Part shown: positions 19,716 through 22,894 of the stretch, in pieces
How positions within the stretch are numbered: position 1 is the stretch's first letter
How the letters are laid out: each line of letters starts with the position of its first letter
Origin: a virus
Virus record (IMG/VR): IMGVR_UViG_3300042691_049879
Span: 4,801 to 68,800 of that record
Reading direction: 5' to 3' (one strand)
DNA length: 64,000 bases
Notes under the pieces: model-generated
Databases searched by the model: none
Seen by the model: the letters and a program-made list of their open reading frames with translations, nothing else
Told to the model about the DNA's origin: nothing
Translations under genes and position numbers: made by a program

Positions 19716-20387
19716 ATGAAAATAACTAAACAAGAATTAGCTCAAATCATCAAAGAAGAAGCTCAAAGATTTATGGCTATAAAGAAATTAGAATCAGAAA
19801 AGGCTGAAATAGAAAGACAACTTAATGAGTCTTACATGGAAGAAGAAATTGATGAAATGGAAGAAGGATTTCTTGGGGACGTTGGTAAGAAAATAGGTGG
19901 CGCACTTCAGGCTGGAGCATCGGCTGTACAAAAAGCAGCAGCATCAAAAATAATCAGCCCAGAACAAAAAGCGGCAGGCAAAAAAATGTTTGATGAAAAG
20001 ATGGCAAAACTTAAAAGTGAAATACAATCTAAAGGCTTTACTGATGATAGAATAATTACAGTTGATACTAACGGTAAACAAATTCAAGGACTTGATGAGA
20101 AGAGTTTAAATGATGCGGCTGAGCAATACGCTTATCAAGGATATTTAAATTATGGATTATCTAAAAGTAGCGGTAAAGTTGTTGTTAGTTTTGTTGAAGG
20201 CTCACTAACAGGTGCTGGTGGACAAGGAGGCGGCAAAGTTGTGAAAACACCAGAATTAAAGAAAGAAGAAACAATTTCAGAATCAGTTATCAGACAAATG
20301 ATTAAAGAAGAAGCTGAAAAAATTGAAAAAGCAAAAGCTTTAAAAGCAAGAGCTAATCAAATTAAAGAAGAATTGAAAAATCTATAA
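19716..20387 (+). CDS. Probable virion-packaged protein
   Basis: MKITKQELAQIIKEEA tag, repeated near C-terminus; TATTTAT at 19680. Confidence 0.65.
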   Translation: MKITKQELAQIIKEEAQRFMAIKKLESEKAEIERQLNESYMEEEIDEMEEGFLGDVGKKIGGALQAGASAVQKAAASKIISPEQKAAGKKMFDEKMAKLKSEIQSKGFTDDRIITVDTNGKQIQGLDEKSLNDAAEQYAYQGYLNYGLSKSSGKVVVSFVEGSLTGAGGQGGGKVVKTPELKKEETISESVIRQMIKEEAEKIEKAKALKARANQIKEELKNL

Positions 20388-20402: not shown

Positions 20403-20432
20403 AAAAAAGCGAGCTAAATGGCTCGCTTTTTT
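20403..20432. terminator. Bidirectional intrinsic terminator
   Basis: aaaaaagcgagc-taaatg-gctcgctttttt. Confidence 0.8.
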
Positions 20433-20668
20433 TATTTGTAAATATTTCCTATCGTTCTAGAACTTACTCCTATTGGTTGGCCAAAATTTTCAAAAAAACT
20501 TGAATAATCATTAATTTCTACAGGAATATTTTTTGGATTTTTAGAACTGTTTAAACTTAAATTAAAAGCAGGGCTAGCAACTAAATCATAAGAAAAAACA
20601 GTATAATCAGTTTCTGCAAAAAAAAGTTTTTCTTTTTTCTCTAACAATAATTTTCTATAATATATCAT
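20432..20668 (-). CDS. Mosaic small protein with prohead-protease-like (FSYDLVASPA) and tail-sheath-like (VEINDYSSFFENFGQP) fragments
   Basis: Motif resemblance by eye; YRKLLLEK linker. Confidence 0.45.
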   Translation of the reverse strand: MIYYRKLLLEKKEKLFFAETDYTVFSYDLVASPAFNLSLNSSKNPKNIPVEINDYSSFFENFGQPIGVSSRTIGNIYK

Positions 20669-21036
20669 AAATTAGAATATTTTATATTTGGACCTCTTCT
20701 TGAACGTCTTGTCCTATATTTCTTATACTTTTCTATCAACAATTCTCTTCTGTATTCATTTTCTTTTTCATATTCAAAATCAATATAGTGAAGTAATCCT
20801 GTAGGAGCACTTAATGGTTGCACACTAACTAAATCAGTACCTATAGTAGAAGCAAAAACTCTTCTAACTAAAGGCATTGTTAATGTGCCAAAATCAAAAG
20901 AAAATTTTTTCTTTTTTTCAAACAACAACTCTCTTTTAAAAATGTTATCTGTTTTATTTTTAGATTCTGTTTCAATAACTGTATTGTTAAGAATTTTTGT
21001 CCAAGAATCAAGGTAATGTTTTAAGGTTGAACTCAT
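20665..21036 (-). CDS. Small protein carrying a gp23-like major capsid N-terminal fragment
   Basis: MPLVRRVFASTIGTDLVSVQPLSAPTGLLHYIDFEY. Confidence 0.7.
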   Translation of the reverse strand: MSSTLKHYLDSWTKILNNTVIETESKNKTDNIFKRELLFEKKKKFSFDFGTLTMPLVRRVFASTIGTDLVSVQPLSAPTGLLHYIDFEYEKENEYRRELLIEKYKKYRTRRSRRGPNIKYSNL

Positions 21037-21047
21037 TTTTTTTGTTA

Positions 21048-21542
21048 TTAACTAAATCTTCTATTAACTATTGGAAATCTAACTGCACCATATGGATTTT
21101 GATATTTTTTTTCATATAAAAGATTTCTTTTATACTTTGACTTTTTATTGGCAATATGATTTATTTTTTGTTTTTTTATCTTATCTAAGCTAATAGAATT
21201 GTCTGAACTAAGATTGAAATTTAATAAAGAAATTATTTCTCTATCAATTTCTTTTGCTATTTGTTCAGACAAAAGTTTTGTCAATTCTTCTTCAGCGCTA
21301 AATGTTTTAGGCTTATATGTTTCAATTAAAAGAAATCTTTTATATACATTATTTGACTTATAACTTAATTTTTCAAGTTCTTTTTCTGAATCAACACTAT
21401 AATATGAATGAACATCTTGAGCTAATTCAGGAGTCCATGTGCACTTTAATTTTCTTGGTTCTGAATTTACAACTACCGACTTTAACTGAAAAGTATAGTG
21501 TTTTTTTTCTAACAATAAAACTCTTAAATATTTTTTAGACAT
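21048..21542 (-). CDS. Small protein carrying gp23-like major capsid fragments
   Basis: VVVNSEPRKLKCTWTPELAQD..Y.SVD.EKEL and AEEELTKLLSEQIAKEIDREII; ATG at 21542 preferred to the track start. Confidence 0.7.
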   Translation of the reverse strand: MSKKYLRVLLLEKKHYTFQLKSVVVNSEPRKLKCTWTPELAQDVHSYYSVDSEKELEKLSYKSNNVYKRFLLIETYKPKTFSAEEELTKLLSEQIAKEIDREIISLLNFNLSSDNSISLDKIKKQKINHIANKKSKYKRNLLYEKKYQNPYGAVRFPIVNRRFS

Positions 21543-21609
21543 ATTACAATTATACGACAAAAATTAAAAAAATAAATATTTGCATATTTATTAAAAAAAA
21601 CAAAAAGAG

Positions 21610-21753
21610 ATGGCAAAAAAAATTAATAACAGTTCAGTTGGATTCATTAAAGCCAACAAAAGAAAAAGACCAGGAGTACACTCTAAGTGTAAAAATTCAA
21701 ATTTAAAAAGGTCTAAAAATTATTCAAAAAAATATAAAGGTCAAGGAAAGTAA
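21610..21753 (+). CDS. Small basic protein (47 aa, ...KRPGVHSK...KKYKGQGK)
   Basis: Below ORF-track cutoff; TATTTAT at 21585; K.Y.GQG C-terminus typical of T4-like small basic proteins. Confidence 0.7.
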   Translation: MAKKINNSSVGFIKANKRKRPGVHSKCKNSNLKRSKNYSKKYKGQGK

Positions 21754-22221
21754 TTGGAAAATTTAAGAAAAATAATTAGACAAATTTTAAAAGAATATGT
21801 TGAACATTCAACAGTATTGTCTAATTATGAATTTTACGCTTCTCCTTACGTAGTTTCAAAAATGCTTAATGACATAAGAAATGTTGGAAAACATTTAGAT
21901 TCTAACTTTCTAAAAAATATAGAAGGCTTACAAGTCCTTTCCATAAATGAAAGAGATGGTAAATTGGTTTGTGAAATAGGATATCCAGATGGAACAGTTG
22001 TACTATTTTATAAATCTGGGAGGGGTACTAGTGGTAAACAAAAAGGGTCCTGGTTTCCAATACCTGGTTTTACAAGAAATGCTTTTGAAAATCGTGGACA
22101 AATATTTCCAGAAGGTTGGTTTGTAAAAGGTTCTCTATCAGAAGTTTCTAATAGATACGGCAGTAGAGTTTTTAATTATACTGCCGATTATCTATTAGCT
22201 AATGAAAATGAAATTTTTTGA
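21754..22221 (+). CDS. Hypothetical protein with LRKIIRQILKE tag
   Basis: TTG start right after previous stop. Confidence 0.6.
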   Translation: MENLRKIIRQILKEYVEHSTVLSNYEFYASPYVVSKMLNDIRNVGKHLDSNFLKNIEGLQVLSINERDGKLVCEIGYPDGTVVLFYKSGRGTSGKQKGSWFPIPGFTRNAFENRGQIFPEGWFVKGSLSEVSNRYGSRVFNYTADYLLANENEIF

Positions 22222-22477
22222 CAAAAAACGAGCGTAACCCACATTCTGTTTTAATTCATCATTTATCTTTGCCGCCAACCCGACATCATAGAACAGCTCA
22301 CCTTCTCTGTCTGTTTGCGTTGCATCCTCGGCAGTAAAAGCGACTTGGTAAAGATTCGAACTTTACTATCCCTGCAAATGGGTTATTGCCAATTAATTTT
22401 ATCTAAGTCTCCTGCCTTAAGCTGTGATGTGTGGAGTTTCCTCTCTTTCGAGCGATGAATCCTCTTTTTTCTGTCAA
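22216..22477 (-). ncRNA. rnpB: RNase P RNA, compact, with S-domain replaced by a tRNA-like element
   Basis: GAGGAAACUCCACA pairs with ACAGAAUGUGGGUUA (P4 with bulged U); P1 end pairing; P2 GAUUCAUCG/UGAUGAAUU; P3 CUCGAAAGAG; P5 CAUC/GAUG followed by CAA; P6 ACAGC/GCUGU; P7 GGCAG/CUGCC; P16 GACA/UGUC; L15 GGU. Confidence 0.88.
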
Positions 22478-22486
22478 ATATTTATA

Positions 22487-22894
22487 TTATGCTAAAACTT
22501 CTTCAGCCACTTTTCTTACCTCAGAATTATCTGCTTTTCCCTGAAACTTTTTATTGAACGCTCCCATAATCATTCCAATATTATTAGCGCCATCATTAAC
22601 AATAATTTCAACTTCTTTTCTCACTTCTTCTGTTGTCATTAATTTAGGCAAATAATCATTTAGTATATTAAGTTGAAATTCAGATTCAACGTCTCCAGAC
22701 TTAATTGATTCTTTAAGAGATTTTTCAACTTTCTTTAAAATGCTCATAACATTTTCGTCAGTTGATTCAACTCCTCTTCCTTCAGCATTTTGAATTTCAC
22801 CTTTAATAACTCCAAGAAAATTCTTTTTTTCCATTTCTTTGCTCTTAAAGGCTGTCATAAAATCTTGATTGATTTTTTCTTTTAAAGTTGTCAT
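22487..22894 (-). CDS. GatB/YqeY domain protein
   Basis: LKEKINQDFMTAFKSK...YLPKLMT.EE...MGAFNKKFQGKAD. Confidence 0.85.
   Translation of the reverse strand: MTTLKEKINQDFMTAFKSKEMEKKNFLGVIKGEIQNAEGRGVESTDENVMSILKKVEKSLKESIKSGDVESEFQLNILNDYLPKLMTTEEVRKEVEIIVNDGANNIGMIMGAFNKKFQGKADNSEVRKVAEEVLA

What the first reader, a model, noticed from the sequence alone, without database searches (positions are those of the whole stretch)
20432..21560. Three ORFs stitched from capsid, protease and sheath fragments joined by a repeated [YF]xRxLLxEK linker
Seen: the linker recurs six times (YYRKLLLEK, FKRELLFEK, YRRELLIEK, YLRVLLLEK, YKRFLLIET, YKRNLLYEK). Between linkers are short pieces resembling conserved motifs of T4-like structural proteins. 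These include gp23 major capsid (PLVRRVF...LVSVQPLSAPTGLL; RKLKCTWTPELAQD; AEEELTKLLSEQIAKEIDREII; FPIVNRRF), and less certainly prohead protease (YDLVASPA) and tail sheath N-terminus (INDYSSFFENFGQP). The frames are intact, overlap or abut, and end in a terminator, which argues against random decay. Established: some defence systems (CapRel, Lit) are triggered by major capsid protein. Inference: epitope decoys that jam immune sensors, or dominant-negative inhibitors of a competing phage's assembly.
Basis: partly seen in the sequence, partly recalled or inferred. Interest (0 to 1): 0.75.

Follow-up and report, generated by a model that had tools for sequence, protein, structure and literature searches.

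The report
Tagged capsid-and-protease fragment mini-proteins
A large freshwater phage keeps three small intact genes whose products are chains of short copies of the most conserved pieces of its head-shell protein and, less surely, its head-maturation protease, each preceded by the same short peptide tag; the gene class is widespread in giant phages, I found it in no paper, and its job is untested.

Summary
Three co-oriented minus-strand ORFs (164/170, 123 and 78 aa) end at a bidirectional terminator. They carry all 6 copies of [YF]xRxLLxE[KT] found in the window's six-frame translation. ORF1 and ORF2 match Pfam Gp23 significantly, but only as short blocks in non-collinear order. ORF3 weakly matches two prohead-protease blocks. 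The tail-sheath resemblance fails.

This is not decay. ORF2-like plus ORF3-like pairs are intact in 4 of 4 related loci. A complete 519-kb phage has these mini-genes as well as an intact capsid gene and S77 protease. Among the best 150 hits of a 1.84-billion-protein profile search, 35 small proteins carry the tag and 0 of 23 full-size capsid proteins do. The tag is conserved as peptide, not as DNA.

Function is inferred only. My best guess (about 0.35) is that the tag is a T4-type I/L-x-E processing or targeting signal and that the released blocks mimic capsid and protease surfaces, including the Gol-equivalent block. Immune decoy, anti-competitor poison and an uncut interaction label remain open.

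Earlier notes of this scan describe the same class on other DNA (AI notes, not independent evidence).

The parts
21048..21542 (-). ORF1, 164 aa from ATG 21542 (170 aa from TTG 21560). Layout: tag, capsid E-loop return-strand block, tag, capsid spine-helix block, tag, possible capsid C-terminal block.
   Evidence: (P0001, the 164-aa form, seen on 10 contigs).
21504..21530 (-). Tag copy 1 (YLRVLLLEK), residues 5-13 of the 164-aa form.
21369..21497 (-). Capsid block A: strand before and through RKLKCTWTPELAQD up to the start of the spine helix (own-HMM positions 227-269).
   Evidence: Aligns to T4 gp23 252-313 together with block B.
21318..21344 (-). Tag copy 2 (YKRFLLIET). It sits between two blocks that overlap by 8 profile columns (262-269).
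   Evidence: The same split occurs in the G001 homologue.
21225..21299 (-). Capsid block B: spine helix (EELTKLLSEQIAKEIDREII).
   Evidence: domain 2, 30.6 bits. Stand-alone relatives in L004 and L006-L011.
21108..21134 (-). Tag copy 3 (YKRNLLYEK).
21051..21092 (-). Possible capsid C-terminal block (YGAVRFPIVNRRFS).
   Evidence: By eye only. No HMM domain. Relatives P0036 and P0063 carry a clearer copy after their last tag.
20665..21036 (-). ORF2, 123 aa. Layout: remnant of the capsid propeptide start, tag, Gol-equivalent capsid block, tag, arginine-rich tail.
20914..20940 (-). Tag copy 4 (FKRELLFEK). It lies where full capsid proteins have the region just upstream of the PxVRRVF block.
   Evidence: HMM alignment runs through it.
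20761..20889 (-). Capsid block C (PLVRRVF...DLVSVQPLSAPTGLLHYIDF), residues 50-92.
   Evidence: Aligns to T4 gp23 residues 92-134, with 0 of 300 shuffles as good. Pfam profile 7-49. Nearly invariant across 5 homologues.
20728..20754 (-). Tag copy 5 (YRRELLIEK).
   Evidence: The position is conserved in P0023, P0024, L015 and L016.
20668..20727 (-). Basic tail (RTRRSRRG...).
   Evidence: RRSRRG is conserved in P0023 and P0024.
20432..20668 (-). ORF3, 78 aa. Layout: tag, then two protease-like blocks in reversed order. Its start overlaps the ORF2 stop.
20636..20662 (-). Tag copy 6 (YYRKLLLEK), residues 3-11.
20567..20632 (-). Protease-like block 1 (…DYTVFSYDLVASPA), matching own S77 HMM positions 142-163.
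   Evidence: (6.2 bits). A near-identical block occurs in the L164 ORF3-like gene and in P0039.
20441..20482 (-). Protease-like block 2 (GQPIGVSSRTIGNI), matching own S77 HMM positions 125-138 (catalytic-serine loop).
   Evidence: (4.9 bits). 17 of 127 small family members carry a G[IV]SSR block.
20403..20432 (.). Bidirectional intrinsic-terminator-like hairpin that closes the unit.

Best explanation
What it is (shown). The three ORFs are intact, selected genes that encode mosaic mini-proteins. Each is a string of short blocks copied from the most conserved parts of T4-type head-morphogenesis proteins. Every block is preceded or separated by a conserved amphipathic tag with consensus E-[ND]-[VIL]-[YF]-x-[RK]-x-[VL]-[LI]-x-E-K.
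- Capsid protein blocks: propeptide start, the Gol-equivalent block, the E-loop return strand, the spine helix, and perhaps the C-terminal strand.
- Prohead protease blocks, less surely: the serine loop and the strand after it.

The proteins belong to a large family, absent from Pfam and PHROGs as such, found in giant freshwater phages that also carry a normal capsid gene and an S77 protease.

How it works (inferred, not shown). The tag is a processing and targeting signal of the kind T4 puts on its internal head proteins. It carries the I/L-x-E site after which T4-type prohead proteases cut. The proteins would therefore be engaged by the protease, in or at the prohead, and cut at each tag into single-block peptides plus a basic tail.

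The blocks stay as conserved as in the full proteins although the fold around them is gone. They should therefore bind whatever constrains them there: neighbouring capsid subunits, the protease, or EF-Tu for the Gol-equivalent block. In short, they act as mimics within the capsid-protease maturation system.
For: Shown:
- Significant but partial Gp23 matches.
- All 6 tag copies lie in the locus, against 0.32 expected.
- The tag varies at synonymous sites, so it is conserved as peptide.
- ORF2 homologues at 42-50% identity keep both tags and the block.
- ORF1's tag-split helix is kept in a 519-kb phage.
- ORF2-like plus ORF3-like pairs are intact in 4 of 4 related loci.
- That 519-kb phage, complete by CheckV, also has a 519-aa capsid gene and an S77 protease (109.9 bits).
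- 35 of 127 small hits carry the tag, against 0 of 23 full-size capsid proteins.
- 10 of 150 hits match my protease HMM at E<=0.01.

Bearing on the mechanism:
- Every tag copy here and in the relatives shown contains [ILV]-x-E. T4 gp21 cuts after E in I/LxE (PMC12991175, section 7 read).
- T4 core proteins are cut at several sites, and internal proteins share only a targeting peptide (PMC5694885 and PMC3012670, passages).
- ORF1 and ORF3 carry the tag within their first 13 residues.
- The tag is about 10-fold enriched on small unrelated ORFs of the 519-kb phage (29 against 2.76). This resembles a shared label on diverse cargo.
- Long family members keep the capsid propeptide region.
- The Gol region works as a 29-residue linear ligand of EF-Tu (PMC3014915).
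Against: - I/L-x-E is a low-information motif. The other conserved tag positions (aromatic, basic, K after E) are not known determinants of gp21.
- None of the 29 tagged ORFs of the 519-kb phage lies in its head-gene module, and its real capsid propeptide lacks the extended tag.
- No T4 head protein matches the tag pattern.
- In long family members the position equivalent to the capsid's own cleavage site keeps E in fewer than half of the 16 sequences (read by eye).
- Many tags sit at C-termini, unlike the T4 targeting peptide.
- The locus lies among tRNA and small accessory genes, not among head genes.
- There is no proteomic, expression or binding evidence.
- Structure models were of low confidence.
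Confidence: 0.35

Rival explanations
1. Immune decoys. The peptides present conserved capsid and protease surfaces to host sensors that detect these proteins, such as Lit/Gol-type, CapRel-type, capsid-sensing STAND or TIR systems, or protease-sensing CBASS. They would occupy the sensors without triggering them.
For: - The blocks are the most conserved ones. The Gol-equivalent block is known to act as a linear peptide, and ORF2's block aligns to T4 gp23 92-134.
- Capsid proteins and prohead protease are reported triggers: PMC9712102 (listing only), bioRxiv 10.64898/2026.01.04.697583 (passages) and PMC12991175 (abstract and section 7).
- The locus sits in an accessory region.
Against: - The sensors described in the preprint are said to recognise core folds, not linear motifs.
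- A free Gol-like peptide would be expected to activate Lit rather than block it.
- G003's fragments mimic capsid proteins unlike its own.
- The shared tag is unexplained.
- There is no PADLOC match and no known anti-defence family.
Confidence: 0.2
2. Weapons against competing phages. The peptides are dominant-negative pieces that insert into folding or assembling capsid protein, or protease, of co-infecting T4-like phages and poison their heads.
For: - In G003, 3 of 4 capsid fragments score 81-138 against foreign canonical capsid proteins but 43-56 against G003's own divergent capsid protein, which ranks 35-41 of 42. That phage would be immune to its own fragments.
- The blocks kept are those shared by the widest range of T4-like phages.
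Against: - The 519-kb phage G001 has a canonical capsid protein that ranks 1st of 42 for one of its own fragments (11th and 14th for the other two). Self-poisoning would need to be avoided.
- This phage's own capsid gene is not on the contig, so the comparison cannot be made here.
- The tag is unexplained.
- There is no experimental precedent in the papers I searched.
Confidence: 0.2
3. An uncut interaction label. The tag is a short helix that binds one common partner, such as a chaperone, a host hub protein, the membrane or a phage adaptor. The mini-proteins act whole, bringing capsid or protease blocks to that partner. The I/L-x-E in the tag would be incidental.
For: - The tags fall inside predicted helices with the highest local confidence of the ORF2 model (block means 72-76), in a weak model overall.
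- The tag occurs at N-terminal, internal and C-terminal positions and on 29 ORFs of G001.
- A different giant phage uses another basic C-terminal tail (RKxKIK[KR][IL]F-like) on the same kinds of fragment. That tail has no I/L-x-E.
Against: - No partner has been identified.
- The invariant E and following K have no obvious role in a simple amphipathic helix.
- Model confidence is low.
Confidence: 0.15
4. Decaying remnants of duplicated capsid and protease genes with no function of their own.
For: - The order of blocks is scrambled and partly duplicated.
- T4 itself carries small ORFs annotated as an old duplication of the first part of alt (record annotation).
- No RNA-library contig was found on the ORFs (this is only absence of cover).
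Against: - The frames are open despite about 8% stop probability per codon.
- The same architecture and tag positions are kept at 42-50% identity in several phage lineages.
- At least 35 distinct 50%-identity clusters carry the tag.
- Conservation is at peptide level.
- No indels in the ORFs were listed in the 4 runs laid.
Confidence: 0.05

Closest known systems
T4 internal head proteins (IPI-III) and Alt with their capsid targeting sequence, processed by prohead protease gp21
   Same: A short shared peptide sits on otherwise unrelated small proteins. It contains an I/L-x-E site, and it lies at the very N-terminus in ORF1 and ORF3. The phage lineage has an S77 protease.
   Different: - The tag here has a different, longer consensus. 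It also occurs internally and C-terminally and is repeated up to three times in one protein.
- The cargo consists of fragments of the head proteins themselves.
- Packaging and cleavage are untested.
- The T4 targeting peptide itself was not fetched or compared.
Gol region of T4 gp23 (ligand of EF-Tu that activates the Lit protease of prophage e14)
   Same: ORF2's central block aligns to T4 gp23 residues 92-134. The review calls Gol a 29-residue stretch in the first quarter of gp23, the most conserved part of the protein, and active as a peptide. I recall its position as about residues 93-122.
   Different: Here the block is a free-standing gene product flanked by tags, not part of a capsid protein. 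EF-Tu binding and any Lit-like partner are untested.
T4-type major capsid protein gp23 and its paralogue gp24 (Pfam PF07068, HK97 fold)
   Same: The sequence blocks are homologous at E 1e-10 to 1e-25.
   Different: Only 43-64 profile positions per block out of 376 are present. The order is scrambled across ORFs, the A-domain and insertion domain are missing, and the proteins cannot form the fold.
T4 alt.-1 / alt.-2 small ORFs (annotated as an old duplication of the first part of alt) and T4 Inh (minor head protein, protease inhibitor)
   Same: They are precedents in the T4 record for small ORFs derived from the start of a head-internal protein, and for a phage-encoded protein that acts on the prohead protease (annotation).
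   Different: There is no sequence similarity to Inh: scores lie within shuffles. alt.-1 and alt.-2 are not tagged mosaics.
Dominant-negative protein fragments and eukaryotic microProteins
   Different: No evidence here of titration of a partner. Those systems have no shared tag and no mixing of pieces from two proteins.

Membership tests
T4-type major capsid protein (Pfam PF07068 Gp23) | Significant match to the family profile | tested here: met
   ORF1 53.9 bits and ORF2 39.5 bits against a cut-off of 24.4. ORF3 has no match.
T4-type major capsid protein (Pfam PF07068 Gp23) | Coverage of the whole fold in collinear order | tested here: not met
   ORF1 covers profile 134-197 and ORF2 covers 7-49 of 376. 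ORF1 lies upstream of ORF2. These are fragments, not capsid proteins.
S77 prohead protease (Pfam PF03420) | Match to the family profile above the curated cut-off | tested here: not met
   No hit for ORF3 in Pfam. There were no candidates on the contig.
S77 prohead protease (Pfam PF03420) | Conserved blocks around the catalytic serine and the following strand | tested here: inconclusive
   My own HMM of 18 proteases gives ORF3 11.9 bits, E 3.8e-5 among 6 sequences. Two blocks match, in reversed order. Controls ORF1 and ORF2 gave E 0.16 and 0.23.
S77 prohead protease (Pfam PF03420) | Complete catalytic set (His, Ser, Asp) | tested here: not met
   Only HMM positions 125-138 and 142-163 are matched. 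No histidine block is present in ORF3. It is not an enzyme.
CTS-tagged internal head proteins of T4 | Short N-terminal peptide ending in I/L-x-E | tested here: inconclusive
   ORF1 and ORF3 have the tag within residues 3-13, with LLE. This is a pattern only. The T4 targeting peptide was not compared.
CTS-tagged internal head proteins of T4 | Cleavage by the prohead protease and presence in the virion | not testable with these tools
   This needs protease assays or virion proteomics.
Gol peptide / EF-Tu / Lit system | Correspondence to the Gol stretch of gp23 | tested here: met
   ORF2 residues 50-92 align to T4 gp23 92-134, with 0 of 300 shuffles as good. The Gol coordinates themselves are recalled; the review gives only '29 residues, first quarter'.
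Gol peptide / EF-Tu / Lit system | Binding to EF-Tu and activation of a Lit-type protease | not testable with these tools
Tail sheath (T4 gp18 type) | Sequence similarity of the ORF3 C-terminal half to a sheath protein | tested here: not met
   Score 27, with 452 of 500 shuffles as good. No Pfam or PHROG sheath hit.
Known anti-phage defence or counter-defence families | Match to a PADLOC model | tested here: not met
   No family at E<=0.1 for ORF1-3.

The most novel reading that the evidence does not exclude
Giant phages maintain a natural library of tagged peptide mimics. These are mini-genes that each present one conserved surface of a head-assembly protein (capsid protein, prohead protease, and in some phages terminase and others). 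The phages deploy them either to sabotage head assembly of co-infecting phages or to blind host sensors of conserved phage proteins. The shared tag would serve as the delivery or processing signal.
Probability: 0.3. Interest if true: 0.9.

Novelty: categorically new. Interest (0 to 1): 0.75.

Why it matters
If these proteins work as mimics, they would be a new class of phage accessory gene: fragments of a virus's own essential proteins, kept and tagged for use as ligands. That bears on three open questions:
- How giant phages compete inside a cell.
- How phages cope with immune systems that sense conserved capsid and protease features.
- Why the Gol stretch of capsid proteins is so conserved.

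It also matters for annotation. Hundreds of small metagenomic proteins now get a partial 'major capsid protein' label although they cannot be capsid proteins.

The blocks that nature has chosen to keep point to the interaction-critical parts of T4-type capsid protein and protease. The tag offers a candidate handle for targeting cargo in such phages.

Tried and rejected
Structure.
- AlphaFold2 of ORF2 (5-row alignment) gave mean pLDDT 58.9. ORF1 (2 rows) gave 42.6. Both were too poor for fold searches.

Binding.
- The complex job ORF1 + ORF2 gave no verdict (score 0.05 against a mark of 0.32). This is no evidence either way.

Expression.
- One metatranscriptome run (X18) gave exact contigs on neighbouring genes (19980-20078, 21622-21772, 21895-22051, 22092-22298) but none on the three ORFs. 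Cover by contigs is patchy, so this says nothing about transcription.
- A variant DNA run (X14) showed 6 differences in ORF1 and ORF2: 1 synonymous and 5 amino-acid replacements, mostly between similar residues. All were on single contigs of depth 2.5-2.7, which is too thin for dN/dS.

Promoter.
- The sigma-70-like scan gave 9 sites against 9.8 expected, so it is uninformative.

Origin of the tag.
- A profile-profile comparison of 48 tag windows with the protease alignment picked the protease N-terminal block. P was 0.042 and probability 1.2%, against controls of 0.15-0.58, so this is not significant.
- Resemblances I saw by eye to capsid strands were not supported by HMM alignment.
- My guess that the ORF3 end matches the capsid stretch before block A was rejected (ORF3 E 0.45).

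Other checks that found nothing.
- The other 20 tagged ORFs of G001 that I scanned have no Pfam hit above the curated cut-offs; the few matches at E<=0.05 were all weak.
- My guesses that G003 tail-tagged ORFs copy DNA polymerase motif B and a helicase Walker B got no support. The protease and terminase fragments did.
- The neighbouring 151-aa gene of related loci has only a sub-threshold LigT-like hit and no PDB relative.
- The ESM Atlas gave a 0.87 'hypothetical' lead only.
- Literature searches found no description of capsid-fragment mini-genes. I made two searches only, supplements are closed, and subscription journals are not covered.

The own capsid gene of this phage could not be reached.
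Full report
SETTING. The window is 64 kb of a 68.8-kb viral contig judged 26% complete. It has 29% G+C and 23 tRNA genes. DNA runs that hold it are freshwater or lake metagenomes. No full-length capsid gene lies on the contig.

ANATOMY. Three minus-strand ORFs follow one another.
- ORF1 is 170 aa from TTG 21560. The 164-aa form from ATG 21542 is the one on record.
- ORF2 is 123 aa, at 21036-20665.
- ORF3 is 78 aa, at 20668-20432, and its start overlaps the stop of ORF2.
- The unit ends in a hairpin-plus-T-run that reads as a terminator on both strands, at 20403-20432.

THE LINKER IS REAL AND NOT CHANCE.
- [YF]xRxLLxE[KT] occurs 6 times in the six-frame translation of the window, and all 6 lie in these ORFs.
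- A relaxed form gives 6 against a shuffle mean of 0.32 (maximum 3).
- A slightly wider form gave 2 hits in 72 other phage loci.
- The six DNA copies are only 74-78% alike and use different leucine and arginine codons.
- Across 39 instances here and in a relative, the third codon positions vary freely. The conservation is therefore of the peptide, not of a DNA signal.

THE CAPSID PIECES ARE REAL.
- Pfam Gp23 matches ORF1 (E 2.5e-14) and ORF2 (E 6e-10), but only over profile positions 134-197 and 7-49 of 376. PHROG 138 agrees.
- An HMM I built from 40 full capsid ORFs gives ORF1 two domains, at positions 227-269 and 262-319. They overlap by eight columns on either side of the second tag. ORF2 gets one domain, at 57-116.
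- Against T4 itself, ORF2 residues 50-92 align to gp23 92-134 and ORF1 residues 18-110 to gp23 252-313. No shuffle out of 300 did as well in either case.
- The ORF2 block is thus the equivalent of the Gol stretch. A review describes Gol as a 29-residue, most-conserved part of gp23 that binds EF-Tu as a peptide (PMC3014915, passages). Its exact residue numbers I give from recall.

THE PROTEASE AND SHEATH PIECES.
- ORF3 has no Pfam or PHROG match.
- An HMM of 18 S77 proteases taken from the flanks of capsid genes gives ORF3 11.9 bits (E 3.8e-5 among six sequences). It matches two blocks: the strand after the active site, and the catalytic-serine loop. They stand in reversed order. ORF1 and ORF2 as controls gave E 0.16 and 0.23. 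Pairwise tests agree weakly.
- Family members make the case stronger. P0039 and others carry an unmistakable serine-loop block, and 10 of 150 hits match the protease HMM at E<=0.01.

NOT DECAY, BUT A FAMILY.
- ORF2 has homologues of like size (P0023 and P0024, 50% identity in the five-row alignment). Both tags, the block and an RRSRRG tail are in place.
- ORF2-like and ORF3-like genes lie side by side and intact in all 4 related loci whose DNA I read: L015, L016, L164 and L165. Flanking genes are shared.
- L016 lies in a 518.8-kb record with terminal repeats, complete by CheckV. That record has a normal 519-aa capsid gene and an S77 protease at 109.9 bits.
- The same record also holds an ORF1-like gene whose spine helix is split by a tag at the same place, and a 77-aa gene made of a tag plus the capsid C-terminal block.
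- A profile of five ORF2-type proteins, run against 1.84 billion representatives, found 1798 proteins at E<=0.001. I examined the best 150, with these results.
  - 127 are 300 aa or shorter.
  - 35 of those 127 carry at least one tag, and 9 carry two.
  - 17 of the 127 carry the serine-loop block.
  - None of the 23 longer proteins carries either.
- Sixteen 'long-form' members share one layout: tag, capsid propeptide region, serine-loop block, a hydrophobic-basic helix, the Gol-equivalent block, tag, and a remnant of the capsid C-terminus.
- At 8% stop probability per codon, open frames of these lengths are not expected by chance.

THE TAG REACHES BEYOND CAPSID FRAGMENTS.
- In the 519-kb phage the relaxed tag occurs 29 times in ORFs, against 2.76 in shuffles (maximum 9) and 3 for the reversed pattern. 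Three of these ORFs are capsid fragments. The 20 others I scanned have no Pfam family above cut-off.
- A second giant phage (G003, 385 kb) lacks this tag (3 against 1.4). Several of its small ORFs end in a different basic tail.
  - Four are capsid fragments.
  - One copies the protease N-terminal block (E 5e-10).
  - One copies the Walker-A region of a terminase.
- Three of G003's four capsid fragments resemble foreign canonical capsid proteins much more than G003's own.
- Further kinds of capsid mini-protein turned up along the way.

MECHANISM. Nothing here measures function. I favour a processing or targeting tag for these reasons.
- Every copy holds [ILV]-x-E, the site after which T4 gp21 cuts (PMC12991175, section 7).
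- T4 cuts its core proteins at many sites and labels diverse internal proteins with one short peptide (PMC5694885 and PMC3012670, passages).
- Two of the three ORFs begin with the tag.
- The tag labels many unrelated small ORFs in a relative.

Against this reading:
- The extended tag is absent from the relative's true capsid propeptide and head module and from T4 head proteins.
- Many tags are C-terminal.
- The second phage's tail has no such site.

The blocks remain as conserved as in whole capsid proteins although the fold is gone. This argues that they bind a partner. For the Gol-equivalent block, a peptide-level partner (EF-Tu) is already known in T4.

EARLIER NOTES OF THIS SCAN. Look-ups made after my own analysis show that other windows yielded the same class: tagged mini-genes with capsid, protease and other fragments, and one with a repeated YKRxLLIE motif. 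These are AI notes, not independent evidence.

LIMITS.
- The phage's own capsid gene is unseen.
- Structure and complex jobs gave nothing usable.
- The literature check was two searches without supplements.

Noticed in passing
window 21610-21753 (+): A 47-aa, very basic ORF diverges from the operon. It has no Pfam hit. An exact contig from an RNA library covers 21622-21772.
   Followed up: partly
window 21754-22221 (+); L015, L016, L164, L165: The 155-aa ORF starts with MxNLRKIIR-like residues. Two conserved genes that flank the mini-gene cluster in related phages start the same way. One of them (151 aa) has a sub-threshold LigT-like phosphoesterase hit (E 9.4e-4) and no PDB relative.
   Followed up: partly
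window 21114-21132 and 21327-21345: The DNA of tag copies 2 and 3 forms a perfect 19-nt inverted repeat. The Y-K-R-x-L-L codons used there are self-complementary; the other four copies are not.
   Followed up: no
window 21500-21510, 21105-21112, 20905-20918, 20625-20640: Runs of 6-8 A follow four of the six tags (the codons after ...EK). They could be slippery. I did not test this.
   Followed up: no
G003 record (L116-L135): 342430-342618, 207303-207554, 81791-81994, 304124-304384, 127442-127714: A 385-kb phage has small ORFs that end in a basic RKxKIK[KR][IL]F-like tail. They carry a protease N-terminal block, a terminase Walker-A block and capsid blocks that resemble foreign capsid proteins more than its own.
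   Followed up: partly
P0006-P0021: A family of 133-142-aa proteins, some with Tara or JGI records, fuses the capsid E-loop return strand and spine helix directly to the VQPM block. It has no YxRxLLxEK tag.
   Followed up: no
L165 942-2975: A row of five or more small ORFs upstream of the long-form gene each carry a tag-like motif (such as LTRTVLFEK or STRKILIEK). One shows capsid-like snippets by eye but has no Pfam hit.
   Followed up: partly
P0168, P0114: These mosaics have the capsid VQPM block followed directly by the protease N-terminal block (…NGRVY…), at the place where this family has its tag. This hints that the tag may descend from that protease block; statistically it is unproven.
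   Followed up: partly
window 22487-22894 (-): A YqeY-like protein (Pfam E 1.8e-18; PHROG 'tRNA amidotransferase') lies next to the tRNA arrays.
   Followed up: no
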